Shown one piece after another: positions 13,581 through 64,000 of a stretch of DNA of 64,000 nt. Numbering within the stretch: the first letter of the stretch is position 1; every line of letters starts with the position of its first letter. A program made the position numbers and the translations under genes. Source of the DNA: a virus. Taxonomy: Duplodnaviria > Caudoviricetes. Location of the stretch: the IMG/VR virus record IMGVR_UViG_3300031088_000758, one strand, 5' to 3'. Below the pieces are notes generated by a model. That model did no database searches. It worked only from the letters and a program-made list of their open reading frames with translations, and was not told where the DNA came from.

Positions 13581-13600
13581 TTCAAAAGTTAAAGTTTGGT
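13380..13600 (+). ncRNA. Predicted TnpB omega/reRNA (scaffold at the right end, guide starting at 13581)
   Basis: Inferred from TnpB biology; GC-richer 3' end of tnpB. The 5' boundary is approximate. Confidence 0.5.
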
Positions 13601-14764
13601 GGAAATGCTTAGAGTATGGACATAGTTATTTTGCCGCTATCAATCATTTTTATAATGGCCGAAGATGTTCTACTTGCGCTGGAAAAACTATTGACGTAAG
13701 CAACAAGTTAAGTATTACTCATCCGCACCTTGTCAAAGAATGGGATTTTACAAAGAATTCTTTTAATCCTGGCGAAATTTCTGCTGGGCATGATAAAAAA
13801 GCGTGGTGGAAGTGTTCACAATGTTCTCACGAATGGACAGCTTACGTGTACAATAGAACAAATAAGAAAAGACCTCAAGGGTGTCCTGAATGTGCAAAAG
13901 GAGCAACAGCATCCAGAGGTGAGAAACAAATTATTGAATTTCTTTCCCAAAACAGTGTATTAGACATCGTAACTCATAAAATCATTAATAACAAAGAAGG
14001 TAGAAAATTTGAAATAGATATATTTATTCCACATCTAAATATAGGTATTGAATTTAACGGTATATATTATCATTCAGAAAAGTTTGTCGATAAAAAATAC
14101 CATTTTAATAAATTTAAAACTTGTCAAGAAAACAACATCCAACTGATTCAGATTTGGGAAGATGATTGGTTTAAATCTCGTGAAACTATTAAACAAATGC
14201 TGTTAAATCAATTAAATAAAAATATTGAATACTGTCCCTTGGAAAAAACAACAATTAAAAAGATTGAAGAAGCTGAAGCGATAAAGTTTTTCAGCGATAA
14301 CTATCCACAAAAAGTTCTTAATGCTTCGCTTTATATAGGATTGTTAAACGAAAAACGGAAGCTTATTGCTGTTGTTGCTGTCCAAGAGAGAAAAAGTAAA
14401 AAAGGACTCAATATATCTTGTTTTGTTTCTGAGTACAATTCTTCTAACAATTTCGCCAAACTTATATCTTATATTGAGAAACATTATGATTTTGAATATC
14501 TTACTGCGATATCTGATAACTGCATTGACAATAATGAATTATATATAAATAATGGATTTAAATTCAAAGAACATATTTCTCCTGACTATACATATTTTGC
14601 GAAAAAACAATACCGTGAAGATAAAACAAAATATTCTAAAAATAAATTCAAAAATGATTTAAATTTAGAATATTTTGATAAAATGAATGAAGAAGAATTA
14701 GCAGAGTTAAATGGTTTTTTGAAGGTTTATGATGCTGGGAAAACAAAGTGGGTAAGGAAGATTA

Positions 14765-23560: not shown

Positions 23561-24967
23561 ATGAGAAAAGAAAACTATCCGGGAGTTGAGTTTTTAGAAG
23601 AATTTTGGAATAAACAGAAAAACGGTATTTCTCTTATTGATGCCAAAATTGAAAATAAGTACAAATATTGGTGGTTTTGTCAAGATTTTGATCATTCTTT
23701 TAAAAAAGACATTCGTTTAATGCAGAAAGATCAAAAATGTCAAATTTGTAATGGAAAACAGCTATTGTCAGGTTTTAATGACTTCGAAACACTTAATAAA
23801 AAATATTTATATGAGTGGGACTATGAAAAAAACGCTGTTGGCCCCAGTGAAACTTATTATAGAACGACTAAGTCAATATTTTGGAAATGTACTTTAAAGC
23901 ATTCTTATATGGCTACCGCTTTTGACAAGATGAGAAATCGTGGGGGCTGTCCATATTGCAAAAATATGCGTGTGTTAAAAGGTTTTAATGATTTAGCTTC
24001 AAGGAATCCCGAATTATTAGTTGAATGGAATTATCAGTTAAACGAAAAATTGCCTGAGGAAATCACTTTCTGTAGCGGCGTTAAAGTCCATTGGATATGC
24101 CGAAAAGACAATAGACATAAGTGGGAAGAATCTCCGTTTTTTAGAACTAATAAAGATCGAAACTGGGGCTGTCCCTATTGTGCTGGAAAACGTGTTCTAG
24201 CTGGTGTTAATGATTTATCAACAACCCACCCTCATTGGTTAGATGAATGGGATTTTCAAAAGAACAGTAAGATTGGTTTGAAGCCTACTGAATATACGTA
24301 TGGAAGCTCAAAGGAAGCATATTGGTTATGCAAAGATTATGGACATTCTTGGAAAGTAGAAATTCAAGCACGAGTGAAATATGGTTGTCCTGTGTGTGCT
24401 AATCTTAAAGTTTTGCCAGGGTATAATGATTTTGCCTCACAGGCTCCAGTGTATCTTTTAGAAGAATGGAATTATAATAAAAATGATGTTAAACCCCATG
24501 AAATTTGTTTTAAGACAGACAGATCAGTATGGTGGATCTGCTCGAAAGGTCATTCTTATAGCATGTCTGTTTATAGTAGATCTGTAATGAATTATGGTTG
24601 TCGAAAATGTTCAAATAATGGTGTTTCTAAGATGGAGAAAAGTTTATTGAATTTTATCCAAACATTGTTGCCAATTCACAGCATTGAAGAGAATACAAGA
24701 AATGTTATTAAGCCCTATGAATTAGATATTTATATTCCTGATTTGAATCTTGCTTTTGAATTTAATGGCACTTATTGGCACAGTGATTCTATAATTTTCG
24801 CTCGTACTGGTATGTCAGCTGCTGAGTTCCATCGCATGAAAACAGACATGTGCGCAAAACTTGGCATTAAGTTGATACATATTTCTGAAAAACAGTGGAC
24901 TGAAAATAATAGCCAAGTTTTGCAGATGATTCAATTGGAAACAAAAAATTTATCCACATTGAGATGA
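23561..24967 (+). CDS. Zinc-ribbon-repeat endonuclease
   Basis: Five W(W)xC-H...CxxC repeats; ELDIYIPDLNLAFEFNGTYWHS. Confidence 0.75.
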   Translation: MRKENYPGVEFLEEFWNKQKNGISLIDAKIENKYKYWWFCQDFDHSFKKDIRLMQKDQKCQICNGKQLLSGFNDFETLNKKYLYEWDYEKNAVGPSETYYRTTKSIFWKCTLKHSYMATAFDKMRNRGGCPYCKNMRVLKGFNDLASRNPELLVEWNYQLNEKLPEEITFCSGVKVHWICRKDNRHKWEESPFFRTNKDRNWGCPYCAGKRVLAGVNDLSTTHPHWLDEWDFQKNSKIGLKPTEYTYGSSKEAYWLCKDYGHSWKVEIQARVKYGCPVCANLKVLPGYNDFASQAPVYLLEEWNYNKNDVKPHEICFKTDRSVWWICSKGHSYSMSVYSRSVMNYGCRKCSNNGVSKMEKSLLNFIQTLLPIHSIEENTRNVIKPYELDIYIPDLNLAFEFNGTYWHSDSIIFARTGMSAAEFHRMKTDMCAKLGIKLIHISEKQWTENNSQVLQMIQLETKNLSTLR

Positions 24968-34443: not shown

Positions 34444-36723
34444 ATGTCGGATGCTGGTACTTTGTATAAAATGGCTCAGAGGCGATTAGTTGCCACTTTA
34501 ATGTATGTTGGTCAAGGAGCTAATCAGGTTTTTGAGATTGTAAACCCTGAAGACATGGATGAGCCAGCATTAGAGCTAATATTGACTTCCATGGTGAATT
34601 TAACAAGAAGAAATGAAAGCATTAGCCCAATTTCTGTTGCTCGTGAATTAGAATCTTCGGGTAATTTGGATAAAGCTGGCGGAATTTCTGAACTTCACTC
34701 TCTACACTCAGAAGGTGAAAAATATAGTCTTGAAGCTCCTATTGAAATGTATGCGGAAATACTTAGGGATACTAGTGCAAAAACTAGAATTAACTTTGTT
34801 CTAGATGAATCTAAGCAGAATTTTAAAGATGATTCAGGAATAAGTACCGTAGATGCTGTGTCAGAGTTGCAGTCAATTCTAAATCAACAATTAGTTGGAT
34901 TATCAAATGAGTCAACAGTTACAAGAGTACAAGTTAATGCTCAATCATATGAAGAAAGAATTGAAGAGCGCAGAAGAATTAGTGAAGAGAACAAAGAACA
35001 AGCTGATGGACTGCAGGGAATCCCTTCATTACTTCCTACATTAAATAAATACACACACGGATGGGCACCTTCTCAAATGATAACTGTTGGTGCTAGAACA
35101 GGTGTAGGTAAAGCACTTAGTATTGACACCCCGATTTTGACATCACAAGGATGGAAGGATATGGGTGATATCGCAAAAGGTGATTTTGTTTATGGAAGAA
35201 ACGGTAAATTAACAAAGGTTCTCAATGTCACGGAACACCAGTACGAAAGAACAGTTTATGCAGTAAGTTTTAATAATGGTGAAAGAATATTAGCGGATGC
35301 TGATCATTTGTGGATTGTTGAAGACCCTGAAAGCCGAATCGGAAAAAGCGTTGAAAAAGTTTTGACAACAAAAGATATCTTAGATAATTTAATGTATTCA
35401 GACTACCAAGGTACTAAGAGACTATCTTATTCTGTAAGAATTTCAGAACCATTAATCAACAAACATAATGACAATCTTTCAAATCCGTATAATTTTGGAT
35501 TGCAATTAGCTGAAGGTTTTGTTAATTTTGCTCTTTTGGCTGAGGAAGATATGAATGTTGAAACGTATTTAAAAGAATTGATACTAAGTTCTTTTGAACA
35601 ACGTAATGATTTCGTTTCTGGTCTTATTGAATCTGAGAAAGATGATACTCCTTATTTGTATTTTGCTGATTTTGTAGTTGCGGATTCTATTCGCACTATT
35701 TTTAGTTCATTAGGGTATATGACATTTTTTGATTTTGATGAGGAATTTAATTCTTATCGTGTGTCTTTTTATTCACCTAATGAAAACATTTCAATAACTG
35801 GAAAATATTCAACGTATATTACGAATATTGAAGAAGTTGAAAGTGTTCCTGTAAAATGTATTGAAGTAGACAATGAAGATCATACTTATCTTGCTGGACA
35901 TTCTTTGATCCCTACACATAATAGTGTTTTTGCTGTGAATAACGCTGTGGCAGCTGCTCGTGCTGGAAAATCTGTTTTGTTTTTTACCTTGGAAATGGGT
36001 AATGATGAAATTGATGACAGAATCATTGCTTCAATGTCAGGTGTTTCAATGTCAAGGCTTAAAGAAGGTAATTTAAGCGATGAAGATAAGACATTAGTAA
36101 AAAAGAGTCTTGAAGAGTTAAAAGACATGAAAATCATGGTGGATAGTGATCCCAGAGTGAATGTTGACACTATTAGGGCACGAGCTTTCAAACAAGCACA
36201 ATCACCTGAAGGTTTAGACCTAGTTATTGTAGATTATTTACAGTTGATTTCACCTGCTGGTAGTTATTCAAGTAGGCAAGAAGCAGTTGCCGATATTTCG
36301 CGTAATATGAAACTTACAGCGAAAACTCTTGAAGTTCCTATTATAGTTCTTGTACAGCTAAATCGTGGAAAAGGTGATGATGAAGAGGAAAACAAGCTCC
36401 CATCACTAGACCATATTCGTGAATCAGGCTCTATTGCTATGGACTCTGACGTTGTTATTCTTCTTCACAGAGATGATACTTTTGATGACACAACACCTCA
36501 TACTCTTGTTATTTTGGATAAAAACCGTAATGGTGAGTCGCATAAAGTTATTAGATGTCATTCAAATCTTGAATGTTCTCTCTTCCGTGAAGTTAAGAGA
36601 GAGAAAGATGTGTCAGAAGAACGTTTGACAGATGAAGAAATGTCAGAACTTGAAGCGGACATTGATTTAGATGATTTTGATGGTTATGATTTAGATGACA
36701 ATGATTTAAGTTTAGATTTATGA
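34444..36723 (+). CDS. dnaB: Replicative DNA helicase DnaB containing an intein
   Basis: GARTGVGK|S P-loop, FTLEM, VDYLQL, QLNR, RESGSIAMDSD, KNRNGE. Confidence 0.95.
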   Translation: MSDAGTLYKMAQRRLVATLMYVGQGANQVFEIVNPEDMDEPALELILTSMVNLTRRNESISPISVARELESSGNLDKAGGISELHSLHSEGEKYSLEAPIEMYAEILRDTSAKTRINFVLDESKQNFKDDSGISTVDAVSELQSILNQQLVGLSNESTVTRVQVNAQSYEERIEERRRISEENKEQADGLQGIPSLLPTLNKYTHGWAPSQMITVGARTGVGKALSIDTPILTSQGWKDMGDIAKGDFVYGRNGKLTKVLNVTEHQYERTVYAVSFNNGERILADADHLWIVEDPESRIGKSVEKVLTTKDILDNLMYSDYQGTKRLSYSVRISEPLINKHNDNLSNPYNFGLQLAEGFVNFALLAEEDMNVETYLKELILSSFEQRNDFVSGLIESEKDDTPYLYFADFVVADSIRTIFSSLGYMTFFDFDEEFNSYRVSFYSPNENISITGKYSTYITNIEEVESVPVKCIEVDNEDHTYLAGHSLIPTHNSVFAVNNAVAAARAGKSVLFFTLEMGNDEIDDRIIASMSGVSMSRLKEGNLSDEDKTLVKKSLEELKDMKIMVDSDPRVNVDTIRARAFKQAQSPEGLDLVIVDYLQLISPAGSYSSRQEAVADISRNMKLTAKTLEVPIIVLVQLNRGKGDDEEENKLPSLDHIRESGSIAMDSDVVILLHRDDTFDDTTPHTLVILDKNRNGESHKVIRCHSNLECSLFREVKREKDVSEERLTDEEMSELEADIDLDDFDGYDLDDNDLSLDL
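35113..35922 (+). mobile_element. Class 3 intein (270 aa) in the DnaB P-loop
   Basis: Starts ALSIDTP (Ala1); ADADHLW, VKCIEVD, IPTHN|S give the W-C-T signature; eroded LAGLIDADG remnants. Confidence 0.9.
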
Positions 36724-53469: not shown

Positions 53470-55401
53470 TTGGGTATGACTGAAAAGAAAATGCTATCTG
53501 ATTATCCTAAGCTTGTTAATGAATGGGACTATGAAAAGAACATTGGTTTAGATCCTCATGTGGAGTCTTTTTCGGGAAGAACTAAAATTTGGTGGAAGTG
53601 TTCTTTAAATCATTCCTGGATGTCCATTCTTAGTAATCGAATAAAAGGTTCTCAATGTCCTTATTGTTCAGGAAGCAAAATCTTAGCAGGTTTTAATGAT
53701 GTTTTTACTGTCTCACCGGAATTAATAAAAGAATGGGATTTTCAAAGAAACAATGAAATAAAAATTGACCCATTGACATTAGGTATTGGAAATCATGCAA
53801 AAGTATGGTGGAAATGCTCTAAGGAATTTCATTCTTATGAATCTTCTGTAGCTTCAAGGATTCGCGGAAGGTCTTGTCCTTACTGCTCCAATAAAAAGGT
53901 TCTTGTAGGTTTTAATGATCTTGCTACTCACAATCCAGAGCTTTTAGAAGAATGGGATTATGAAAAGAATTCTTTAAAACCAGAAGATATTACGCCTGGA
54001 TCTGATAAAGAAATTTATTGGATTTGTAATAAGAAACACTCTTATTTGATGTCAGCACAACGTAGGACTAATAAATCAAATTCTCGCGGGTGCTCTGTTT
54101 GTACAGGCAAAAATGTTGTAAGATCAACTTCTATATTAGATATGCCTGAAATATTGAAATTTTGGGATTTTGATCGTAATAAAGTTGATCCTATGACAGT
54201 TCTGCCAGGCAGCAATAAAAAATATTGGTGGGTCTTTGACTGTGGACATAGCTGCCAGAAATCTCCAAAGTCTATAAAAAATGGTTCAAAATGCCCTTAC
54301 TGTGCTGTTGGTAATACTCAGCTATTGGAAGGATACAATGATTTAGCTACAAAAGCTCCAAATCTTGTGGCTGAATGGAGTGAAAATAATAAAAACTTGC
54401 TACCTTCGAATTTTTTATCTGGTTCTAAGAAGAAAGTTTGGTGGAAGTGTCAAAAAGATCATGAATGGCAAGCTGTAATTGATAATAGATATAGGCGAGT
54501 CGCATCTTGTCCTCAATGTTCTTCTAAAGGAACTTCGAAATTAGAAAAGGAAGTTCAAAACTTTATAAGAAGTATTCTTCCAGGCTCAATTTCTGTTGTT
54601 TTTAACTCTTATCAAATAATTAAGCCACAAGAGCTTGATATTTACATTCCTGAGAAAAGGATAGCAATAGAGTTCAATGGTTTATATTGGCATAGTGAAG
54701 CAACAGGCAAGGATAGAAATTACCATTATGATAAATGGAAAAAATGCCAAGATCAGGGTATTCAATTAATCACTATATGGGAAGATGATTGGCGTAATAA
54801 TAGAAAGATTGTTGAGTCCATGTTGAAGCATAAGATTGGTTTTTCTGATAATATGAGAGTTTATGCTAGGAAGACTTATGCTAAATTAGTTGACAATTTT
54901 GAAGCAAAAAATTTCTTAAATTATCATCATATTCAGGGTTTTAAAAATATTACAAAGAGTTTTGGGTTATTTGACAAAAGTAATGATGTTTTAGTTGCTG
55001 TTATATCTTTTTCTGTTGATAAGAATGTAGCAAGTTTAGATAGGTATGCTACTTCTTTTTCAGTAGTTGGAGGTTTTACAAAGTTGTTGAATTATGCTGT
55101 TAATGAGATAAGAAAAAGCAATTCTGAAATTGATATTATTACAACTTTTGCTGATCATGAGGTCAGTGATGGTGGTTTGTACAAGAAGAATGGCTTCATT
55201 GTTGATTCTCATGTAAAGCCTGATTATAAGTATATTTATAAGAATCAGAGATGCCATAAATTTTTGTTTAGGAAGAAAAGATTCGAAAAAGATTCTGATT
55301 TAGTGTTTGATGAGAATATGACAGAGAAAGAGTTGGCGGATGTCAATAATATATATAGAGTTTGGGATTGCGGTAAAACCAAGTATGTGAAGAAAGTTTA
55401 A
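53470..55401 (+). CDS. Zinc-ribbon-repeat endonuclease with extra C-terminal domain
   Basis: Five W-x-C-H...CPxC-type repeats, ELDIYIPEKRIAIEFNGLYWHS, then FLNYHHIQG...RVWDCGK; adjacent to nrdE. Confidence 0.75.
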   Translation: MGMTEKKMLSDYPKLVNEWDYEKNIGLDPHVESFSGRTKIWWKCSLNHSWMSILSNRIKGSQCPYCSGSKILAGFNDVFTVSPELIKEWDFQRNNEIKIDPLTLGIGNHAKVWWKCSKEFHSYESSVASRIRGRSCPYCSNKKVLVGFNDLATHNPELLEEWDYEKNSLKPEDITPGSDKEIYWICNKKHSYLMSAQRRTNKSNSRGCSVCTGKNVVRSTSILDMPEILKFWDFDRNKVDPMTVLPGSNKKYWWVFDCGHSCQKSPKSIKNGSKCPYCAVGNTQLLEGYNDLATKAPNLVAEWSENNKNLLPSNFLSGSKKKVWWKCQKDHEWQAVIDNRYRRVASCPQCSSKGTSKLEKEVQNFIRSILPGSISVVFNSYQIIKPQELDIYIPEKRIAIEFNGLYWHSEATGKDRNYHYDKWKKCQDQGIQLITIWEDDWRNNRKIVESMLKHKIGFSDNMRVYARKTYAKLVDNFEAKNFLNYHHIQGFKNITKSFGLFDKSNDVLVAVISFSVDKNVASLDRYATSFSVVGGFTKLLNYAVNEIRKSNSEIDIITTFADHEVSDGGLYKKNGFIVDSHVKPDYKYIYKNQRCHKFLFRKKRFEKDSDLVFDENMTEKELADVNNIYRVWDCGKTKYVKKV

Positions 55402-56298: not shown

Positions 56299-56392
56299 TT
56301 TAAATTTTCTCAGCGTTTTTAAAGTTTCTAAAATATGTTTAAGGCCCCTGGCTCATAAAACGAGGTTTTACAAAAAACTTTTCAAATAAACA

Positions 56393-56445
56393 AATTTACC
56401 CTCCTAAAAGCTTGCTATTTAACGAAGCTTTTAGGAGGGTAAATT
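56393..56445. terminator. 21-bp perfect inverted repeat between convergent genes
   Basis: aatttaccctcctaaaagctt / aagcttttaggagggtaaatt, 11-nt loop. Confidence 0.7.
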
Positions 56446-56512
56446 GTAAGCGATTATCAGGCTTAGAGAGATTATAAATATTTCTTTAAATTTAATCGAA
56501 TTAATGTTTATT

Positions 56513-57085
56513 TTAACACTTTGATTGTACCCTATTCACTTTTGTTTCTTCACGTATCTTTTTGAGCAATCTTAGTCTATCTTCTAACTGTTGTATTTCA
56601 TTATCTCCGTAGTACAGATAATGCAACCTTCGAGAGCGTTTCTTGTCTTTATATATGTCTTTTCGTAATTCTTTCAAATAAACTGAGAAAGGTTGACGTA
56701 TGTTATTTTGGTGTAAGTAGAAATGGTATTTATCGTGTGAAAGAGTAGGGTGTTCTTTATGTGTAAAGCGGATATACCCATTATCTAATGTTTCAATAGT
56801 ATAATCATTAAAATCTTTAATAAAGATCCAATTGAAATGTCCGCGACCAGTGTTTATGTAAGATAATGTTTGTGTTGAATCTTTTATCGGATTATAGTAT
56901 CGTAAATTACCGTTTTTGTCTTCTATTGCATTGTATGATTTTTTTGCAAGGTTCAAACATACTTGTTGTAATTCTGAAATTCTTTTTACAACATCTCTTA
57001 TCGTTAAATCATGTGTGTAGGACTGGTGGGGAGCTTCATCCTTAATGATGAACTTTGTAGTACTGGTTTCTTTAACATTGTTCAT
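56513..57085 (-). CDS. Hypothetical protein (last gene of the tRNA-pth operon)
   Basis: ATGA overlap with the upstream gene. Confidence 0.65.
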   Translation of the reverse strand: MNNVKETSTTKFIIKDEAPHQSYTHDLTIRDVVKRISELQQVCLNLAKKSYNAIEDKNGNLRYYNPIKDSTQTLSYINTGRGHFNWIFIKDFNDYTIETLDNGYIRFTHKEHPTLSHDKYHFYLHQNNIRQPFSVYLKELRKDIYKDKKRSRRLHYLYYGDNEIQQLEDRLRLLKKIREETKVNRVQSKC

Positions 57086-57672
57086 TTTTTAATCTCTTTC
57101 TTGTAGTTTTCTTTTTGTGTCATTTCTTGTATGATTCTTGAAGCTTTTTGTTCTTGTTGAACCGTAATTTTTTCTTGAATTTTTTGTAGTTTTTGGTTTT
57201 CTCTGAGCAATTTTTCAATCATTTTTTCATTTTTTTTGATTTCTGAGACAGAGTTTTTACGAGTTTCTTCCTTCACTCTATCATTATGTTGTTTAATTTT
57301 TTGACGAATAAGTTTTGCGAAATCCCTATCACTCATATGGAAGAATTTGCGGGGAACTTTGAACTTCTTTACCTTGTCAGTGTTTCCGAGAAAGTATTCA
57401 AATTCAAAAATTTCTTCATAGGACGAAAAAGAATGTACTTTAAATCGTTGTATGTAATATAAGTTGAGTGTGAGGAATGAAAAATCATTTTCAAAAATTT
57501 TGTTTTTTGTCTCAAGGTCAACGTTTAACTTCCTCAAAATACTATTTGAAATAAGTATAAGATTTTCTACTTTTTTGTAAAGTAATTTATTAAATACACT
57601 CATTCTTTTTTCAATTTGTGCTTTTTCTTCTTGTAGCTTATTTATCTCTTTGAACTGTGATTTTATATTCAT
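57082..57672 (-). CDS. Hypothetical coiled-coil protein
   Basis: ATGA overlap; SDRDFAKLIRQKIKQH shared with its neighbour. Confidence 0.65.
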   Translation of the reverse strand: MNIKSQFKEINKLQEEKAQIEKRMSVFNKLLYKKVENLILISNSILRKLNVDLETKNKIFENDFSFLTLNLYYIQRFKVHSFSSYEEIFEFEYFLGNTDKVKKFKVPRKFFHMSDRDFAKLIRQKIKQHNDRVKEETRKNSVSEIKKNEKMIEKLLRENQKLQKIQEKITVQQEQKASRIIQEMTQKENYKKEIKK

Positions 57673-58202
57673 GATGCTTGACCTGATTTCTTTTTCATTT
57701 TATACATATGATTAATTTCGCTTTCCAAAGCGTTTAAAGATTTTGTTTTATGTTTGAGGATTTCATCAAAATTTTGTAAAGTATTTTGTTGCTTTTGAAT
57801 TTTATGTTTTTTAATTTGCTGTCTGACTAATTTAGCAAATTCTCTGTTGCTAAGCTTTAACAATGATTGGGGAATATCCTGAATAAAGTCTTCGTTTCTT
57901 GACCTTGATAAAGTTCTTTTACGAAGGATAATCTCTATATAGTCATTATTTATACTTTGAATGCCAAAACGATATGCTGGTCTTATTGCTTCAGTATAAT
58001 TCAACCATTCTAGTTCTTCAGTGTGTATATTATTGTAATAATAAATACGGTTGTTTTTTCCAAAAGATTTTTTTCGTATTGAATTAGCTATACACATCAT
58101 TTCATGAAGCTTTTTGTTATAAAAATTCTCAATTTCGTAAATTTTTTCTTTACAATCGTTGTAATTATTAATCATTTGTTGGGTTTTAGTGTTATTTTTC
58201 AT
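57669..58202 (-). CDS. Hypothetical coiled-coil protein
   Basis: ATGA overlap with the pth stop; SNREFAKLVRQQIKKH. Confidence 0.65.
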   Translation of the reverse strand: MKNNTKTQQMINNYNDCKEKIYEIENFYNKKLHEMMCIANSIRKKSFGKNNRIYYYNNIHTEELEWLNYTEAIRPAYRFGIQSINNDYIEIILRKRTLSRSRNEDFIQDIPQSLLKLSNREFAKLVRQQIKKHKIQKQQNTLQNFDEILKHKTKSLNALESEINHMYKMKKKSGQAS

Positions 58203-58579
58203 TGTTCTACCTCTTCTTCGTTGTGGAAAGATTTACCAGCCAAAGGAAGGCGTGACAATAATCTCCGATTAGCTGTATGTGGTACAAACGCTAAAGAGGT
58301 GATTGAGTAATTTAAATCAGGTTCTCGGAAACATATAACATCGAGTTTTTTGTTTTGCGCTTCTTCATATAATTCTACAAGGGATTTTTCATCTTGTGTT
58401 TCAAGCGCAACTATATATTGGCTATTATTGTGCCATTTTGAGAATTCATTTGGTCTATAAATAGAAAAATCAGCGATAGCATGACTTATCTGAGCGATTT
58501 TATAGCCAGAAGTCAGATCACTGTGTGTAATTAAGTAGAGGGGTAATCTTGATTTGTTAGATTCGTAAGCCTAGGTCAT
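58199..58579 (-). CDS. PTH2-family peptidyl-tRNA hydrolase with in-frame TAG at codon 3 (not in ORF track)
   Basis: AAAGGA SD, then ATG ACC TAG, then open to TGA: MT*AYESNKSRLPLYLITHSDLTSGYKIAQISHAIADF...YIVALE...CFREPDLNYSITSLAF...LSRLPL; 127 codons including stop. Confidence 0.85.
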
Positions 58580-58634
58580 TTTGAGTATTTCCTTTTCAGT
58601 AGTGTTAGTGTTTAGTGAAAATATTTTATTTTCG

Positions 58635-58706
58635 TGCTTCTGGTCAGAATTGAACTGACTAATAGCGGGTTTAGAGTCCGCTGCTTATCCATTTAGCATC
58701 AGAAGC
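58635..58706 (-). tRNA. tRNA with CUA anticodon (amber suppressor); CCA not encoded
   Basis: GCTTCTG-AT-GCT AAATGGATA AGC-A-GCGGA CTCTAAA CCCGC-TATTA-GTCAG TTCAATT CTGAC-CAGAAGC-A; perfect acceptor and T stems. Confidence 0.9.
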
Positions 58707-58741
58707 ATAGTAAAAAATGCCATTTTTAACATCTTTTACTA

Positions 58742-58770
58742 ATTATATCAAAAGATTATTTATTTGTCAA
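58742..58770 (-). promoter_or_regulatory. Perfect consensus sigma70 promoter for the tRNA-pth operon
   Basis: TTGACA-17 nt-TATAAT with extended TG. Confidence 0.85.
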
Positions 58771-58773
58771 ATA

Positions 58774-59337
58774 TCAAGCCATGGATCCTAGTATGATAAT
58801 AAATACAAAGAAAACAAACCATAGAACTATAAAGAATAACTGAATACCAGAAACAATCAAGCCTACTAGCGAAAGTGTTTTTCCAGTAGAATCATTAGTG
58901 TTTTTTGATTCGTTATATCCCATCCAAGAAAGTATTAATCCTACTGGAAAGAATATAAAGCTGAATATTAAGCCTAATAATGCTTTAATATTCAGTTCTT
59001 GGTTTGGAGCACTATAGCTTGAAGAGTAGGAACTCGAAGCCGTTCCTGGCTGTGTCCATTCTGGCGCGTTGTATTGTGCCTGTGGCGGGTTTTCTTCGTA
59101 TGGGTCAGAAGAAGGGCTATTATGGCTTGTAGGCTCGTTTTGAGAGGTATGAGAAGTCTCTGGTGAAGAACCTATACTATCTGAATAATTGTCAGGGTAA
59201 GAATTCGGTTGTACATAAGATGGTGCTGAATTCGCTGAGCTAAACATTTCATTATCATAATTTGGTAAATTTTGAGGAGTATGATTTTCTTTATTCGTGC
59301 TCTCACCATTGTTGTTATATGTATTGGGTTGTGTCAT
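58774..59337 (-). CDS. DUF4190-like membrane protein
   Basis: P/S/Y-rich N-terminus; ALLGLIFSFIFFPVGLILSWMG...GKTLSLVGLIVS. Confidence 0.75.
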   Translation of the reverse strand: MTQPNTYNNNGESTNKENHTPQNLPNYDNEMFSSANSAPSYVQPNSYPDNYSDSIGSSPETSHTSQNEPTSHNSPSSDPYEENPPQAQYNAPEWTQPGTASSSYSSSYSAPNQELNIKALLGLIFSFIFFPVGLILSWMGYNESKNTNDSTGKTLSLVGLIVSGIQLFFIVLWFVFFVFIIILGSMA

Positions 59338-59728: not shown

Positions 59729-60469
59729 TCATGATGATTGGCGAAGTGGTGGATAAATTTCTTTAGCATTACCTGCTTTGTAAAGTTGAGATTCTCTGCC
59801 ACCTTCAATTTTTGATGAACGTTTGTCATCAACGGATTCAAGTAAGTGAGGAACGCTTTGGATTTTTCGTCTAAAGTTGCTTGGAACAATTTTTTCGCCC
59901 CAGACGATTTCGTATACTTTTCTAAGTTCGCTAATTGTAAAAGTATCATCATCTAAGAAATGGTGAGCCACAGGTGCGTACTCAATTTTTGATCTGACTC
60001 GGTTTAGTCCATCTTCTATAATTGTTTTATGGTCAAATGCTAATTCAAAATCTTCAAGAACGTCTTCCACAGCAAAGAAACGCGCTTCATCAGCATCATC
60101 TCCAGCTTTAGGTGTGCTAGCATGAGGAATAAGAGCTACATAGGCTGTTGATATGACGTATCCACGAGGATCCCGAACTGGGCTTCCGTATGTCTTTAAT
60201 TGTTCAAGATATCCATCAGCAATTTTTAAATTAGTTTCTTCGACTAATTCACGAGCAGCAGCTTCATCGAGATTTTCTTTTGTATCTACAAAACCACCAG
60301 GTAATGCCCATTTTCCTTTGTGTGGATGTCCTCCGCGCTTTACAAGAAGTATAGATAGTTGATTATTCCTGATTGTAAAGATAGCAAGATCAACAGTACC
60401 AGCAATAGTAGGATATTTGCTCATATCGTAATTTTTAAGAAACTCTTCTTCTGTGATTTCGGTGTTCAT
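59729..60469 (-). CDS. nrtR: NrtR-type Nudix hydrolase / winged-helix regulator
   Basis: WALPGGFV...AAARELVEETNL Nudix box, EQLKTY...RDPR, LAFDH, FTISELRKVYE...NFRRK. Confidence 0.88.
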   Translation of the reverse strand: MNTEITEEEFLKNYDMSKYPTIAGTVDLAIFTIRNNQLSILLVKRGGHPHKGKWALPGGFVDTKENLDEAAARELVEETNLKIADGYLEQLKTYGSPVRDPRGYVISTAYVALIPHASTPKAGDDADEARFFAVEDVLEDFELAFDHKTIIEDGLNRVRSKIEYAPVAHHFLDDDTFTISELRKVYEIVWGEKIVPSNFRRKIQSVPHLLESVDDKRSSKIEGGRESQLYKAGNAKEIYPPLRQSS

Positions 60470-60499
60470 TGTAATTCTCCGTATCTTCGATTTATCTGA

Positions 60500-61024
60500 T
60501 CAGTATACTTTAGTTTTGTTAATAATATTGTCTTTGTTTAAAATCCAGAAATTTGCTTGTATGTATCGAGATTTTTCAACTTTAAAAATTCTTTTCCATG
60601 ATTCTTCTTTAAGGTTTCCAGTAAGATTGAAATAATATTCGAAGGATTCTTCATCATCCTCATTTTCTGGGATACCTATGTCGTTTAACACATAATGCCA
60701 TTTGTCAAAGTCAGATAATAAAACTTCTTTATCAGGTATTTCAACTTCTAATATGTAATCATTTTTTGTCAAATTTTTGTAATATGAAGTTCTTCTATCT
60801 ATTTTATAAGGTTTTCCACGATAAGTGTGCCATGCCCATATAGGATAGGTTATTTCTTCGTTGCTTTTGGGAATTGAAGAATTCATTATTTTGGATAACC
60901 ATTTATAAGAGTTTTCAAATTCGCATTCTTGAATAAGTTCTGATTTTTCTGGATCACATATGAAATAATTCTTTTCATCAATTTCTTGAATTACTGCTTC
61001 GGGTTGAATAGTGAATAGTCTCAT
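60500..61024 (-). CDS. DUF3841-like protein
   Basis: LFTIQP, YPIWAW, VLLSDFDKWHYVLN, SWKRIF, IQANFW. Confidence 0.75.
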   Translation of the reverse strand: MRLFTIQPEAVIQEIDEKNYFICDPEKSELIQECEFENSYKWLSKIMNSSIPKSNEEITYPIWAWHTYRGKPYKIDRRTSYYKNLTKNDYILEVEIPDKEVLLSDFDKWHYVLNDIGIPENEDDEESFEYYFNLTGNLKEESWKRIFKVEKSRYIQANFWILNKDNIINKTKVY

Positions 61025-61206
61025 TCTAAACCTCCGTCATCAATACCTTTCCAGTAGGGTATTGATGATTGCGATTTTATTTCTTCATGCCATTTTATAT
61101 GTTGTTTTCGAGCGGGAGTTATTGATCCACATATCAAACATATGAACAGCTTAGTTTCTTTCTCCGTTTTTGGGTTTATCTTAGGAAGTTCTTTAAACTC
61201 AACCAT
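61021..61206 (-). CDS. Small Zn-finger-like protein
   Basis: CLICGS...HIKWH. Confidence 0.55.
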   Translation of the reverse strand: MVEFKELPKINPKTEKETKLFICLICGSITPARKQHIKWHEEIKSQSSIPYWKGIDDGGLE

Positions 61207-61221
61207 ATCACAATCACAACC

Positions 61222-61767
61222 TTATTCGTTATTCATTTTCCTATTATCATCAATTTTTTGTTGAATCTCTTTGTAGATTTCAGGATCAAATTCAGGAATA
61301 TTTAATTCATGGTTTTTGAAAATATTAGTTCTTTCTTCCATTATAAGTATTTCTTCATGTGCTTTTTGTACATTGTTAGCAAGCTCAAAAGATTGTCCAA
61401 AGTTTCCTTCGTTAACGTATTTAGTGTATTGCGCGAATACTTCATTAAAATTATTCAATGTTTTTTCAGAGTCAAGTTTAGGGTCATAATTGATATGAAT
61501 CAAAACTTGTTTAACAGCGTCTTCTTTTACCCCAGAAGCACCATTCGGTAGTCTTACTATTTGTTCTAGTCCATGTTTTGCAATTAGTGGTTTGAGAAGG
61601 TGTGGAAAATTAGTTTCTTCATTTGGAAAAGTATCAATGTTTACACCTATCCATCCACAGGAACAAGAAGGATGGTATTGAGGAGGTTCTCCCCATCCAA
61701 GTACATTTATAACTGCTTTGTGCTGAGAATCGTTGCTTATGTATTCATTGTTGGACATTTTTACCAT
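61222..61767 (-). CDS. Hypothetical protein
   Basis: CSCGW motif; AAGGA SD. Confidence 0.6.
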   Translation of the reverse strand: MVKMSNNEYISNDSQHKAVINVLGWGEPPQYHPSCSCGWIGVNIDTFPNEETNFPHLLKPLIAKHGLEQIVRLPNGASGVKEDAVKQVLIHINYDPKLDSEKTLNNFNEVFAQYTKYVNEGNFGQSFELANNVQKAHEEILIMEERTNIFKNHELNIPEFDPEIYKEIQQKIDDNRKMNNE

Positions 61768-61789
61768 CCTTCTTGTTCCTGTTTTATGC

Positions 61790-62365
61790 TCAGATTACTT
61801 TAATGCCGTTTTCAGGAAGATCGTAATCTAATGAGTTATCCACTCGATCTGAATCAATCCCCACAGTATAATCAGACCAAACAGTTGTATTAAATCCTTC
61901 TTGAGCTGCATCAAGAGCTGTAGCTTTTACACAATGCTCAGTAGCAATTCCTACAACAGTTACATCAGATACTTCAAGGACACGAAGAACTTCGGTTAGA
62001 GTTTGTCCCTCTACTGTCTGTCCCTCAAATCCTGAGTAAGCAGCTTCGTACATTCCTTTACGAATATTGATATGAGGAACAGATTCTAAAGCCTTCTGTA
62101 AAACTGGCACAATTTCTGAGCCTTTTTCTTCGGCAACACAATGAACCGGCCAGGTGTCCACAAAATCAGGATTCTCGGAGAAATGTGTTCCTGGGTCAAT
62201 ATGCCAGTCTTGAGTAACTACAATGTGATCAAACATCTTTTGGAAAGTGTGAGGAACTTTGTCTGCTAAACGCTCAGCAACAAGTGTTCCACCATCAACA
62301 GCCAATGAACCACCCTCAACAAAATCATTTTGGACATCTACAATAATAAGCGCATTTTTAGTCAT
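61790..62365 (-). CDS. pncA: Nicotinamidase
   Basis: VDVQNDF, DWH, WPVHC, K, GIATEHCV. Confidence 0.93.
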   Translation of the reverse strand: MTKNALIIVDVQNDFVEGGSLAVDGGTLVAERLADKVPHTFQKMFDHIVVTQDWHIDPGTHFSENPDFVDTWPVHCVAEEKGSEIVPVLQKALESVPHINIRKGMYEAAYSGFEGQTVEGQTLTEVLRVLEVSDVTVVGIATEHCVKATALDAAQEGFNTTVWSDYTVGIDSDRVDNSLDYDLPENGIKVI

Positions 62366-62415
62366 GATAATTTATCTCCTTTTTAAATTAAACAATAATA
62401 TATTTTTATATTTTC

Positions 62416-62640
62416 TTACATTTCTTCGATGTAGTCATCCATATAAGACCTAAGCAAACTCAAATCAGAACGTAAATTTTCGTATTTTTCTGTAATTTGT
62501 TTAACAAGTTCAAAGAATTCTGGGTTCTCTTCTTCTTCAAGCATTGTATGATTCATACCGTATTCTGTAAAACCATAATCTATACCTTCATATTCAAGTT
62601 TGCTACAGAAGTCTCGAACACTCATCTTTGCATCATTCAT
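62416..62640 (-). CDS. Small hypothetical protein
   Basis: 74 aa, GGAG SD, ATGA overlap. Confidence 0.6.
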   Translation of the reverse strand: MNDAKMSVRDFCSKLEYEGIDYGFTEYGMNHTMLEEEENPEFFELVKQITEKYENLRSDLSLLRSYMDDYIEEM

Positions 62641-63170
62641 TGAGTCAGCCTCTCCTTCGTCCAGTCAATAATCTTTACAATATCCTTTTTAGTAAGCCCC
62701 ACACGTCCATTCGTATGAATAATTAATGGTAGCTCCCTAAAATGACCTCTGATGTAATCACCCCAGAAGAAAGGTGCTAAATCATCAATCCAAATAAAAG
62801 GACGAGGGTTTTTAGCTTGATCTTCTAGAATATATTCAGCTTTCCAACGAGTCCACTCCATCTTGCTTCCAGCATCTTTGTTAAGAACTGCTTCAGTGTG
62901 TTCAGAAAGGTTCTTAAATCCCATGATTTCTGAAGCTTGTACAATGTTGCTACCATCATTCCAAGTAGTATGCCAAACAAAATCATACAAACCTGTTTCC
63001 AGTAGTTCAGACATGCTCTTCACAACCTCTGGATTCCACTTGATTTCATCCTTGTTTCGTAGAAAATGACTATTTTCAATTTCAATGGTTGCTGAAGCGG
63101 TTGCTGAACTATCAGAAACGTTAAAGACACCATCAAAATCAGAATAAATAACAATCTTAGCAGATTTCAT
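62637..63170 (-). CDS. HAD-superfamily phosphatase (RNA-repair-like HAD)
   Basis: DFDGVFN, WHTTW, WK, WIDD, GLT. Confidence 0.8.
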   Translation of the reverse strand: MKSAKIVIYSDFDGVFNVSDSSATASATIEIENSHFLRNKDEIKWNPEVVKSMSELLETGLYDFVWHTTWNDGSNIVQASEIMGFKNLSEHTEAVLNKDAGSKMEWTRWKAEYILEDQAKNPRPFIWIDDLAPFFWGDYIRGHFRELPLIIHTNGRVGLTKKDIVKIIDWTKERLTQ

Positions 63171-63208
63171 TTTTTAAATCCTAACATTTTAAAATTACGT
63201 ATGAAAGG

Positions 63209-63238
63209 ATTATAACATTAATTAGAGTTAAAAGTCAA
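63209..63238 (-). promoter_or_regulatory. sigma70-type promoter
   Basis: TTGACT-18 nt-TATAAT with extended TG. Confidence 0.6.
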
Positions 63239-63289
63239 ACTGATTATTAGGATTATATGTTGTTAAAATCGAACTGAACAGTTTCAACA

Positions 63290-63493
63290 TCATCTTCCAT
63301 AATAACCATCCGCTTTTTCGATTTTTATTGAAGTGTACCACTCACCTTCTCTGTCTTTAACCAATATAGCTTTGGTTGTACTATTTAAATCAACTGTAAC
63401 AGATGAAATTGAAGAATCTGTTTCTTTCAGCTTTTGTGCAGTATTTAAAAGGTTCTCAATTTGATCTATTGTAATCTTCCCTGAATCATTCAT
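63290..63493 (-). CDS. Small hypothetical protein
   Basis: 67 aa, overlaps the pncB stop. Confidence 0.55.
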   Translation of the reverse strand: MNDSGKITIDQIENLLNTAQKLKETDSSISSVTVDLNSTTKAILVKDREGEWYTSIKIEKADGYYGR

Positions 63494-64000
63494 TGTTGTC
63501 TTCTCCTAACAAAGTAGCCTCAAAAGCGCTTTCTCCGGCTGATGTGAGCTTTGCTTTTAGTGGCAAAGTATCTAATGTTTCTTTATGTAATTTTCTTGAT
63601 TCTTCAATTGTCGGAATATGAAAGTTTCCATTTTCTGCATAAACAATCTGTAATTTTTTGATTGTTTCAGTTTCTTCAATTTCATTAAAAGTGAAAAATT
63701 CTTCAAGAATGATTCCATTAGAATCATACTTACGGTAAGCGTTTTTAAATCCGCCTACTGATTTTTTCCCACTAGCTTTTTTGGCTACTGGTGTCATGTT
63801 CCCTGATTCATCTTCTCTTTCAACTAATTTAAAAACCATTCCAGCAGTAGGATGCCCTGATCCGGTCACAACACGTGTTCCAGCACCTACTTTATCTACT
63901 GGTGTTCCATTGTCTAAAAGTTCAGAAATAGTGAATTCGTCAATGTCTGAAGAAAGTACAATTTTAGTATTCACAGCACCAAGTTCATCAAGGAGTTTTC
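63486..64000 (-). CDS. pncB: Nicotinate phosphoribosyltransferase, C-terminal part (5' end outside the window)
   Basis: KIVLSSDIDE, GAGTRVVTGSGHPTAGMVFKLV, VAKKASGKKSVGG. Confidence 0.88.
   Translation of the reverse strand, partial: KLLDELGAVNTKIVLSSDIDEFTISELLDNGTPVDKVGAGTRVVTGSGHPTAGMVFKLVEREDESGNMTPVAKKASGKKSVGGFKNAYRKYDSNGIILEEFFTFNEIEETETIKKLQIVYAENGNFHIPTIEESRKLHKETLDTLPLKAKLTSAGESAFEATLLGEDNNE

What the first reader, a model, noticed from the sequence alone, without database searches (positions are those of the whole stretch)
58635..58706. Non-canonical amber suppressor tRNA with a Pyl-like anticodon loop and uncertain amino-acid identity
Seen: the anticodon loop is CUCUAAA. The tRNA has an A31-C39 mismatch, A in place of U8, a 3-bp D stem, a 5-nt variable loop, G1-C72, discriminator A and no encoded CCA. 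Established: tRNA-Pyl has the same CUCUAAA loop but lacks the canonical D-loop GG and T-loop TTC, both of which are present here; no pylS/pylBCD lies in the window. Inference: it is charged by a host synthetase (Lys, Gln or Tyr are candidates) or by an element-encoded one elsewhere. The weakened arm may tune it to partial suppression, which would suit a sensor.
Basis: partly seen in the sequence, partly recalled or inferred. Interest (0 to 1): 0.7.

Follow-up and report, generated by a model that had tools for sequence, protein, structure and literature searches.

The report
Suppressor tRNA that unlocks neighbouring hydrolase gene
This is a genuine but oddly built tRNA that reads the stop codon UAG, and its one visible job is to let ribosomes pass a deliberate UAG at the third codon of the tRNA-hydrolase-like gene next to it, a pairing kept in giant phages, giant mobile elements and some soil bacteria.

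Summary
The tRNA is real. It is not pyrrolysine-like: the CUCUAAA loop is the ordinary loop of tRNAs that read U-starting codons, and no tRNA-Pyl hallmark is met.

It belongs to a conserved family of tRNA(CUA) genes, found in Chloroflexota chromosomes and in relatives of this 727-kb element. In all 42 loci with enough flanking DNA, a PTH2-family hydrolase gene lies beside the tRNA. In about 41 of 48 such genes an in-frame TAG sits at codon 3-6, behind a good ribosome-binding site. In the window the gene starts ATG ACC TAG, and no alternative start can give the conserved core.

The "defects" are selected traits. The A31.C39 mismatch recurs in at least seven different stem sequences, including Lak megaphage suppressors. 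A8 always goes with U21.

The window uses TAG for 0 of 56 gene ends and shows no other in-frame TAG.

The amino acid carried cannot be read from the sequence; Gln, Lys and Glu all remain possible.

This scan has noted the same cassette on other DNA (142 notes, at least 90 genomes). My five full-text searches turned up no published description.

The parts
58742..58770 (-). Promoter-like site TTGACA-17-TATAAT with TG before the -10 hexamer, about 35 nt upstream of the tRNA 5' end
   Evidence: 12 of 12 consensus matches, the only perfect site in 56300-58900. No terminator-like site was found in that stretch.
58635..58706 (-). tRNA(CUA), 72 nt, no encoded CCA. Anticodon at 58674..58672, A8 at 58699, A31 at 58677 facing C39 at 58669.
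   Evidence: Covariation over 38 relatives.
58590..58594 (-). Shine-Dalgarno AAGGA, 10 nt before the ATG of the hydrolase gene
   Evidence: Sequence read (upstream context CTGAAAAGGAAATACTCAAA ATG)
58199..58579 (-). PTH2-family hydrolase gene, ATG ACC TAG then 123 sense codons. The in-frame TAG is at 58573..58571.
   Evidence: Pfam PF01981 at 30.8 bits against a cut-off of 23, E 3.7e-7. A profile of the family hits solved Pth2 2zv3 at E 4e-8. Under table 11 no ORF of 20 aa or more exists in this frame. The contig's own gene calling skipped it.
56513..58202 (-). Three genes of unknown function (177, 196 and 190 aa) chained to the hydrolase gene by 4-nt overlaps. Same gene order in relatives L157-L159.
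   Evidence: ORF coordinates. No Pfam, PADLOC or PHROG match. Neighbours of the relatives.

Best explanation
The locus encodes a working amber-suppressor tRNA that belongs to a conserved two-part cassette.

The tRNA is most likely transcribed from its own strong promoter, together with the PTH2-family hydrolase gene 55 nt downstream. Its one demonstrable client is the UAG at codon 3 of that gene. RF1 would end translation there after two residues. Only aminoacyl-tRNA(CUA) lets the ribosome continue into the conserved core, so hydrolase output follows suppressor activity.

The unusual anatomy is the selected design of this tRNA class, not decay. This covers the open 31.39 pair, which leaves an effectively 4-bp anticodon stem, and A8 paired in evolution with U21.

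Shown: the tRNA, the gate, their conservation, and the absence of any other start.

Inferred:
- The tRNA is charged by a host synthetase. The residue lies in a non-conserved leader, so its identity probably does not matter.
- The hydrolase acts on ester-linked forms of this same tRNA, which would close a feedback loop that sets the level of UAG read-through.
- The element has cleared TAG from its own gene ends because the suppressor is active in its host.
For: (1) Real tRNA.

(2) Family:
- The exact 17-nt anticodon arm retrieved 44 tRNA(CUA) genes from metagenomes. It also retrieved 17 from species genomes, nearly all Chloroflexota/Anaerolineae.
- The window tRNA is 74% identical to the Chloroflexota type. 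It is at most 60% identical to any of the 44 ordinary tRNAs recovered by ARAGORN from a host genome.

(3) Linkage: all 42 loci with at least 900 nt beside the tRNA hold a PTH2-like gene.

(4) Loci found through the protein alone also carry a suppressor tRNA:
- L118-L120.
- L157-L160.
- L001 and L002.
- Lak megaphages and the 735-kb phage LR756501.

(5) Gate:
- About 41 of 48 PTH2-like genes have ATG, then 1-4 codons, then TAG, just before the core.
- This includes the close relatives L157, L158 and L159 (codon 3), L160 at 66% GC (codon 5), and LR756501 (codon 3 plus a second TAG).
- Two source pipelines could only call the gene 'with TAG=Q'.
- The window has no alternative start.

(6) Selected anatomy:
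- A31.C39 occurs with stems GCGGA/CCCGC, GCGGA/CCCGU, AGGAA/CUCCU, GCAGA/CCUGC, GCACA/CGUGA and GGAAA/CUUCC.
- Among suppressors not retrieved by the 17-mer pattern, A.C is present in 6 of 14, against 2 of 65 ordinary tRNAs; Fisher p = 2.5e-4.
- Every A8 member has U21 and every U8 member has A21.

(7) RF1 is intact in 5 of 5 host genomes that carry the family, so UAG is a true stop there.

(8) The window has 40 TGA, 16 TAA and 0 TAG gene ends. From trinucleotide frequencies the chance of 0 in 56 is 1e-6.

(9) Promoter present, no terminator.
Against: - Nothing is experimental. Expression, processing, CCA addition, charging and read-through are all inferred.
- Seven PTH2-like genes beside a suppressor tRNA have no TAG (L001, L002, L074, L083, L118-L120). 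The gate is therefore an add-on to a more basic tRNA-hydrolase partnership whose chemistry is unknown.
- Chloroflexota hosts end many genes in TAG and keep RF1, so strong constitutive suppression should be costly there.
- Only 64 kb plus 20 kb of the 727-kb element could be read, so further TAG-containing clients elsewhere are not excluded.
- The canonical Pth2 GKGK segment is not aligned in this family, so peptidyl-tRNA hydrolase activity is not assured.
Confidence: 0.72

Rival explanations
1. General recoding helper. The tRNA mainly serves to decode many in-frame TAG codons in other, for example late or structural, genes elsewhere in the 727-kb element, as in Lak and crAss-like 'code 15' phages. 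The hydrolase gene would be just one of many clients.
For: - TAG is absent from gene ends.
- PTH2-like genes with neighbouring suppressor tRNAs occur in Lak megaphages, which are published as TAG-recoded (Borges et al., bioRxiv 10.1101/2021.08.26.457843, listed).
- Recoded phages keep early genes in the standard code, and this window holds replication-type genes.
Against: - Reading TAG as sense changes no conserved gene in the window other than the hydrolase gene.
- The contig's own gene calling used a code that skips the hydrolase gene.
- A first-reader note on the adjacent window reports the same pattern; I did not check it.
- The cassette also sits in bacterial chromosomes with RF1 and ordinary TAG stops.
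Confidence: 0.15
2. Host-directed suppressor. The element uses the tRNA to read through the host's TAG-terminated genes as a form of takeover or addiction. Its own genes are insulated by avoiding TAG, and the gated hydrolase only limits the damage.
For: - 0 of 56 TAG ends in the window and 0 of 10 in relative L159.
- TGA makes up 71% of stops in 35% GC DNA.
- Sporadic, mobile-like distribution: 1 of 401 genomes sampled in the phylum and 4 of 301 in the order.
Against: - Chromosomal copies sit in genomes that use TAG freely.
- No host effect can be seen from sequence.
- This reading is compatible with, not exclusive of, the best explanation.
Confidence: 0.15
3. Pyrrolysine-type or other non-canonical amino-acid tRNA, charged by a dedicated synthetase encoded elsewhere.
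For: CUA anticodon with a CUCUAAA loop. ARAGORN's label. Most of the element could not be searched.
Against: - Every structural hallmark of tRNA-Pyl that can be read is absent.
- No synthetase-like ORF among the 30 window ORFs scanned.
- PylS over its cut-off in 0 of 5 genomes that carry the same tRNA family.
- The UAG lies in a non-conserved leader, and one relative has CAG there.
Confidence: 0.02
4. Decay: a damaged tRNA gene next to a hydrolase gene killed by a nonsense mutation, both without function.
For: A8, the A13.A22 and A31.C39 mismatches, and the lowest Rfam score among the tRNAs of a host genome (41.1 bits). The gene caller skipped the hydrolase gene.
Against: - The same 'defects' and the same early TAG are kept across 35-66% GC, with compensatory changes elsewhere in the tRNA.
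- The hydrolase frame stays open for 123 codons after the TAG.
- There is a perfect promoter.
Confidence: 0.02

Closest known systems
Suppressor tRNAs of stop-codon-recoded phages (Lak megaphages, crAss-like phages; 'code 15', TAG read as Gln; Borges et al., bioRxiv 10.1101/2021.08.26.457843)
   Same: An element-encoded tRNA reads a stop codon in a host that keeps RF1. The element avoids that codon as its own stop. Lak phages carry a homologous PTH2-like gene about 700 nt from a suppressor tRNA that also has A31.C39, G1-C72, A73 and a 3-bp D stem.
   Different: In this window TAG is not a general sense codon; the only in-frame TAG is in the hydrolase gene. The Lak tRNA near the gene has anticodon UUA, and the Lak hydrolase gene has no TAG. 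That preprint's text has no occurrence of 'peptidyl-tRNA hydrolase'.
Classical amber suppressors and the 'Sup' tRNAs found in about 0.3% of standard-code bacterial genomes (PMC13092985)
   Same: A CUA anticodon on a class I cloverleaf with the efficient CUCUAAA loop.
   Different: Classical suppressors are single-base anticodon mutants of an ordinary tRNA. This one is at most 60% identical to any ordinary tRNA of a host genome. It forms its own family with an altered core (A8/U21) and has a conserved, linked client gene.
tRNA-Pyl (pylT)
   Same: Anticodon CUA and loop CUCUAAA only.
   Different: The 5-nt variable loop, G18G19, UUC T loop, two bases between the acceptor and D stems, and A73 all differ. 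No PylS was found in genomes carrying the family. The defining features of tRNA-Pyl are taken from my own knowledge.
tRNAs with 4-bp anticodon stems that promote stop-codon read-through (Blastocrithidia and bacterial tRNA-Trp; E. coli tRNA-Thr2 G27.A43 with a CUA anticodon; PMC13092985)
   Same: One anticodon-stem pair is open in a tRNA that reads a stop codon. L001 and L160 also have the top pair open.
   Different: In the published cases the top pair (27-43) is open and the tRNA is near-cognate or engineered. Here the bottom pair (31-39) is open in a fully cognate suppressor. Its effect is untested.
prfB (RF2) autoregulation through an in-frame UGA at codon 26 (my own knowledge)
   Same: An early in-frame stop codon in a translation-factor gene makes its output depend on how that stop codon is being read.
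   Different: prfB uses a +1 frameshift and senses RF2 itself. Here a dedicated tRNA reads through in frame, and the gated product is a tRNA-ester hydrolase homologue.
The 'self-gated amber-suppressor tRNA / PTH2-like cassette' noted repeatedly by this scan on other DNA (e1-933198, e1-3288186, e1-5391601, e1-5368949 and others)
   Same: A tRNA(CUA) beside a PTH2-like gene with an early in-frame TAG, in phages and soil bacteria.
   Different: New here:
- a Chloroflexota chromosomal branch with an extra conserved 150-aa gene between the tRNA and the hydrolase gene;
- the copy on this 727-kb element;
- the tRNA-centred findings (A31.C39 across unrelated stems, the A8/U21 swap, RF1/GlnRS/PylS status of hosts, TAG to CAG in L083).

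Membership tests
tRNA (Rfam RF00005) | Score above the curated gathering threshold over the full model | tested here: met
   50.3 bits against 29, model positions 1-71
tRNA (Rfam RF00005) | Cloverleaf supported by compensatory changes in relatives | tested here: met
   14 of 21 pairs change on both sides; 93.7% of cells paired; 0 of 500 shuffles reach this; slid controls reach at most 51%
tRNA (Rfam RF00005) | Canonical tertiary core U8-A14-A21 | tested here: not met
   The window has A8, A14 and U21. Across the family, A8 always goes with U21 and U8 with A21. This suggests a swapped core but does not show one.
Amber suppressor tRNA | Anticodon CUA in a 7-nt loop with U33 and a purine at 37 | tested here: met
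   Loop C32-U33-C34-U35-A36-A37-A38
Amber suppressor tRNA | A conserved in-frame UAG that needs read-through | tested here: met
   Codon 3 of the adjacent gene; no other start; the same in about 41 of 48 relatives
Amber suppressor tRNA | Aminoacylated and active on the ribosome | not testable with these tools
   Needs acid-urea northern blot, tRNA-seq and a reporter assay
tRNA-Pyl | 3-nt variable loop, small D loop without G18G19, T loop without the UUC consensus, one base between acceptor and D stems (features from my own knowledge) | tested here: not met
   5-nt variable loop UAUUA, D loop AAUGGAU with GG, T loop UUCAAUU, two bases (A8, U9)
tRNA-Pyl | Cognate PylRS in the same genome | tested here: inconclusive
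   None among the 30 window ORFs scanned. 0 of 5 genomes carrying the tRNA family reach the PylS cut-off. The rest of the 727-kb element could not be searched.
Code 15 (TAG reassigned) element | TAG not used as a stop | tested here: met
   0 of 56 gene ends; chance 1e-6
Code 15 (TAG reassigned) element | Many conserved genes interrupted by in-frame TAG | tested here: not met
   In the window only the hydrolase gene changes when TAG is read as sense. Only about 12% of the element was seen.
PTH2 peptidyl-tRNA hydrolase family (PF01981), for the gated neighbour | Pfam score above the curated cut-off, and profile match to solved Pth2 structures | tested here: met
   30.8 bits against 23. Profile of 26 members against PDB: 2zv3 at E 4e-8, 24bt at 1.2e-6, human Bit1 1q7s at 1.3e-3.
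PTH2 peptidyl-tRNA hydrolase family (PF01981), for the gated neighbour | Catalytic residues of Pth2 retained | tested here: inconclusive
   Gln27, His30, Pro84 and Asp85 are invariant, and Glu83 and Thr91 nearly so. The GKGK segment of 2zv3 falls in a gap of the family profile. No structure superposition was done.
Amber-gated suppressor tRNA / PTH2-like cassette (unpublished, from this scan) | Suppressor tRNA within about 2.5 kb of a PTH2-like gene, and a TAG within the first six codons behind an SD and ATG | tested here: met
   55-nt spacer, same strand, SD AAGGA, ATG ACC TAG

The most novel reading that the evidence does not exclude
The tRNA and the hydrolase form a closed homeostat. The PTH2-like enzyme specifically removes the amino acid or short peptide from this odd-shaped tRNA, recognised through its open 31.39 pair and its A8/U21 core. 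The enzyme can only be made when that tRNA is charged. The cassette would thus hold UAG read-through at a set level. Giant elements that have purged TAG from their own genes could then run a private, dosed change of the genetic code inside a standard-code host.
Probability: 0.2. Interest if true: 0.85.

Novelty: new variant of a known kind. Interest (0 to 1): 0.7.

Why it matters
Suppressor tRNAs in standard-code phages and bacteria have been orphans with no known target. Here the target is explicit, conserved and next door, which makes the tRNA's function directly testable with a simple reporter.

The recurrent A31.C39 mismatch and the A8/U21 swap give a sequence signature. It could separate this class from accidental suppressors and from tRNA-Pyl mislabels in annotation pipelines.

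Gene callers miss the gated gene, or switch whole contigs to code 15 because of it. Recognising the cassette would therefore improve annotation.

If the hydrolase proves specific for this tRNA, the pair would be a compact natural switch for tuned stop-codon read-through.

Tried and rejected
- Isotype by similarity. I fetched the 44 ordinary tRNAs of one host genome and compared them. The best matches were Met, Arg, Thr and Lys at 52-60% identity, which is background level, so no parent isotype can be named.
- Identity by reasoning gave conflicting hints:
  - A73, G1-C72 and A31 lean towards Lys, by the E. coli 31-39 Lys/Gln 'seesaw' (PMC1483225).
  - CAG replaces TAG in L083, which leans towards Gln.
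  - GlnRS is found in only 2 of 5 host genomes. From my own knowledge, G1-C72 should be rejected by GatCAB, which would leave Glu.
- Whole-genome access. No genome is held for the window, and the ENA contig cannot be searched.
- DNA search of the locus against phage records: no match.
- Exact tRNA patterns in IMG/VR: no match.
- Gene X of the Chloroflexota loci. It has no Pfam, PADLOC or PHROG family. The model is confident (pLDDT 88.9), but no Foldseek match in the PDB reached E 0.001. It is unrelated to the window's downstream genes.
- Defence-system libraries gave nothing for any cassette protein.
- Distant 'hydrolase' homologues in cultured T4-like phages (phiAS5, YB07) have no tRNA gene annotated within 5 kb. 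RAS14 has no tRNA by ARAGORN within 4 kb. The linkage therefore holds only for the closer clades.
- The second ATG TCA TAG after the L005 hydrolase gene opens only a 31-codon frame.
- Literature searches for a described tRNA(CUA)-Pth2 pairing found none.

Full report
**Observation**

ARAGORN finds exactly one tRNA in the 64-kb window, at 58634-58706 on the minus strand with anticodon CTA. Rfam's tRNA model matches 58635-58706 end to end at 50.3 bits, against a gathering score of 29.

Read on the minus strand, the gene is GCUUCUG-A8-U9-GCUA-AAUGGAU-AAGC-A-GCGGA-CUCUAAA-CCCGC-UAUUA-GUCAG-UUCAAUU-CUGAC-CAGAAGC-A, followed by CGA. Every feature in the finding is there:
- loop CUCUAAA;
- A31 facing C39;
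- A8;
- a 3-bp D stem;
- a 5-nt variable loop;
- G1-C72;
- A73;
- no encoded CCA;
- D-loop GG and T-loop UUC.

The strand folds as a cloverleaf at -23.6 kcal/mol (z = -3.65). The thermodynamic fold leaves 31 and 39 open, giving a 9-nt loop.

**Setting**

- The window is part of a 727,572-bp metagenomic contig (ENA ERZ27247443).
- GC content is about 35%.
- It carries gyrAB, recA, dnaB, recG, RNR, a PBP, a Clp-type ATPase, RNA ligase, TnpB and many zinc-finger nuclease-like genes.
- All long genes are intact in table 11. Reading TAG as sense changes no conserved gene except one.
- Among 56 non-overlapping ORFs the stops are 40 TGA, 16 TAA and 0 TAG. From the window's trinucleotide frequencies, the chance of no TAG stop is about 1e-6.

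**The neighbour**

- Fifty-five nt downstream of the tRNA, on the same strand, an AAGGA ribosome-binding site precedes ATG ACC TAG and then 123 open codons.
- These codons match Pfam PTH2 (PF01981) at 30.8 bits against a cut-off of 23.
- Under table 11 that frame has no ORF of even 20 residues, so the conserved core cannot be made without reading the TAG.
- A perfect TTGACA-17-TATAAT promoter lies about 35 nt upstream of the tRNA. No terminator-like site follows down to 56300.
- The contig's own gene calling left the gene out.

**A family, not a one-off**

The exact 17-nt anticodon arm, including the mismatch, was searched in two collections:
- Metagenomes gave 82 loci, of which 44 hold a tRNA(CUA).
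- One-per-species genomes gave 31 loci, of which 17 hold one. Nearly all of these are Chloroflexota (Anaerolineae, Thermoflexales, Aggregatilineales, Chloroflexia).

The Chloroflexota tRNAs share A8-U9, the D arm, the arm itself, a 5-nt variable loop, the T arm and A73 with the window tRNA. Identity is 74%, against at most 60% to any of the 44 ordinary tRNAs recovered from one host genome.

Across 38 members the cloverleaf is 93.7% paired, 14 of 21 pairs change on both sides, and 0 of 500 shuffles reach this.

In a host genome this tRNA has the lowest Rfam score of 45 tRNAs, at 41.1 bits. That fits a deviant but conserved design.

**The tRNA-hydrolase link**

An HMM of the hydrolase core finds a homologue in 48 loci. 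All 42 loci with at least 900 nt beside the tRNA have one. A profile of 26 members hits solved archaeal and human Pth2 structures: 2zv3 at E 4e-8, 24bt at 1.2e-6 and 1q7s at 1.3e-3.

The link also holds when loci are found through the protein alone:
- Three further Anaerolineae-order genomes.
- Four close relatives of the window gene: L157-L159, at 35-38% GC and syntenic with the window, and L160 at 66% GC.
- Two IMG/VR giant contigs.
- Lak megaphages, with a suppressor tRNA(UUA) about 700 nt upstream.
- The 735-kb phage LR756501, with two tRNA(CUA) genes 2.2 kb away.

More distant 'hydrolase' homologues lack the link. phiAS5 and YB07 have no tRNA annotated within 5 kb, and RAS14 has no tRNA by ARAGORN within 4 kb.

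**The gate**

- About 41 of the 48 genes begin with ATG, then 1-4 codons, then TAG, 4-13 codons before the conserved core.
- Among 35 distinct contexts, TAG is the 5th codon in 27 and the 3rd in 5, the latter being the window group and L005.
- L157, L158 and L159 read ATG TCA TAG, ATG ACG TAG and ATG CAA TAG.
- L160 reads ATG GAG CAC ACC TAG.
- LR756501 reads ATG TCG TAG and has a second TAG inside the domain.
- For two loci the source pipelines produced the protein only 'with TAG=Q'.

Seven genes have no TAG: L001, L002, L074, L083 and L118-L120. In L083 a CAG stands where its nearest relatives have TAG, and its tRNA no longer reaches the Rfam threshold. This is a single case and proves nothing on its own.

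**The 'defects' are design**

A31.C39 occurs with six different stem sequences:

| Stem (5' / 3') | Where |
|---|---|
| GCGGA / CCCGC | window, Chloroflexota, L005, L074, L026 |
| GCGGA / CCCGU | L157 |
| AGGAA / CUCCU | L158 |
| GCAGA / CCUGC | L159 |
| GCACA / CGUGA | L001 |
| GGAAA / CUUCC | Lak suppressors |

- Counting only suppressors that were not retrieved with the 17-mer, A.C occurs in 6 of 14, against 2 of 65 ordinary tRNAs. Fisher p = 2.5e-4.
- L118-L120, which lack the TAG gate, have U31-A39. The match between mismatch and gate is not perfect, however: L001 and L074 have the mismatch and no gate.
- Every A8 member has U21 and every U8 member has A21. This suggests a compensated tertiary core.
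- Whether the open pair lowers or raises suppression is unknown. Published 4-bp anticodon stems, with the top pair open, increase stop read-through (PMC13092985).

**Not pyrrolysine**

- The CUCUAAA loop is simply the C32-U33-NNA-A37-A38 loop that host tRNAs for UNN codons share.
- The structural hallmarks of tRNA-Pyl are absent.
- PylS is over its cut-off in 0 of 5 genomes carrying the family.
- RF1 is intact in 5 of 5, so the tRNA competes with termination.

**Amino-acid identity**

- No isotype can be assigned by similarity.
- A73, G1-C72 and a purine at position 31 resemble what favours LysRS over GlnRS for CUA tRNAs in E. coli (PMC1483225).
- The TAG-to-CAG replacement in L083 and the phage precedent favour Gln.
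- GlnRS is present in only 2 of 5 host genomes. From my own knowledge, a G1-C72 tRNA should not be amidated by GatCAB, which would leave Glu.
- The residue lies in a non-conserved leader, so the cassette probably works with whichever residue is inserted.

**Distribution**

- The chromosomal cassette is sporadic. It was found in 1 of 401 genomes sampled from the phylum and 4 of 301 from the order.
- Its flanking genes vary.
- In Chloroflexota a conserved gene of about 150 aa lies between the tRNA and the hydrolase gene and overlaps the gated leader. Its product is all-alpha and has no Pfam family and no Foldseek match in the PDB.
- The window lacks that gene. Instead it chains three unknown genes behind the hydrolase gene.

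**Reading**

The shown facts support a dedicated suppressor whose client is the neighbouring gene, so hydrolase synthesis is tied to suppressor activity.

It remains inference that the hydrolase acts back on this tRNA, and that the element's lack of TAG stops is a consequence of carrying an active suppressor.

Two rivals stay open and are not exclusive: a wider recoding role elsewhere on the element, and a host-directed role.

**Relation to earlier notes and the literature**

This scan has noted the same kind of cassette on other DNA: 142 notes in at least 90 genomes, in Acidobacteria and many phages, some cultured. Single notes elsewhere mention A31.C39. One such report was later re-priced at 85/100 for what was seen and 20/100 for the bold reading. 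I keep my confidence for the feedback step similarly low.

My five full-text searches found no paper that describes a tRNA(CUA)-Pth2 pairing.

Noticed in passing
L106:4387-4851 (-) and 33 other loci (alignment A3): A conserved gene of about 150 aa (starts MNTL[SP]RA..., 20 invariant residues) always lies between the Chloroflexota tRNA(CUA) and the gated hydrolase gene, and usually ends inside its leader. The model is confident and all-alpha (pLDDT 88.9). It has no Pfam, PADLOC or PHROG family and no Foldseek match in the PDB.
   Followed up: partly
L161:3236-3308 and L162:3341-3413 (Prevotella phages Lak-A1 and Lak-B1): A Lak megaphage suppressor tRNA with anticodon UUA, an A31.C39 mismatch, a 3-bp D stem, G1-C72 and A73 lies about 700 nt upstream of a PTH2-like gene that has no TAG.
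   Followed up: partly
L163:3986-4369 (uncultured 735-kb phage LR756501): A PTH2-like gene starts AAGGAG...ATG TCG TAG and has a second in-frame TAG at about codon 42. Two tRNA(CUA) genes lie 2.2 kb downstream. Most neighbouring ORFs have no TAG.
   Followed up: partly
Gated leaders of 35 distinct loci: The codon just before the gating TAG is CAG, CAA, CAT or CAC in 23 of 35 contexts. This may reflect a P-site or context effect on read-through, or descent of TAG from CAG.
   Followed up: no
L005:1459-1555: Right after the L005 hydrolase gene the leader motif is repeated (ATG TCA TAG GTG CAC...) but opens only a 31-codon frame. It may be a second gated mini-ORF or a duplicated leader.
   Followed up: partly
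L010, L014, L039, L040, L083 (just 3' of the tRNA): An ATG-CTG/CAG-TAG triplet set about 15 nt after the tRNA is in frame with the 150-aa gene about 33 codons further on. It could be an upstream amber-containing leader or chance.
   Followed up: no
L093:173-1663 (Anaerolineae MAG, 5 kb from the cassette): An array of 11 tRNA genes with near-identical backbones (GGAGRYGTRGTGTAACG...) and different anticodons. It looks like a mobile or phage-derived tRNA array.
   Followed up: no
window 59729-63998 (-) and L085: An NAD-salvage cluster lies beside the cassette: NAPRTase-like, HAD, isochorismatase/nicotinamidase, DUF3841 and a NUDIX-NrtR regulator. The same order is seen in relative L159.
   Followed up: no
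window 34444-36723 (+): DnaB helicase of 759 aa with about 385 residues between the N-terminal (13-109) and C-terminal (495-702) Pfam domains. This could be an intein or another insertion.
   Followed up: no
window 13504-16003, 23561-24967, 53470-55401 (+): Four genes with 2-5 copies of the DUF4379 treble-clef zinc finger, some with nuclease-like or Mom-like ends, plus a TnpB (IS605 OrfB) gene at 12207-13511. They look like homing or mobile nuclease genes scattered among the replication genes.
   Followed up: no
window, all genes: TGA ends 71% of genes in DNA of 35% GC, where TAA would be expected to dominate.
   Followed up: partly
L135 and L143 (host genome G001): Ordinary host tRNA-Met(CAU) and tRNA-Arg(CCU) have an A31.G39 mismatch. 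An open bottom pair is therefore not unique to suppressors in this lineage.
   Followed up: no
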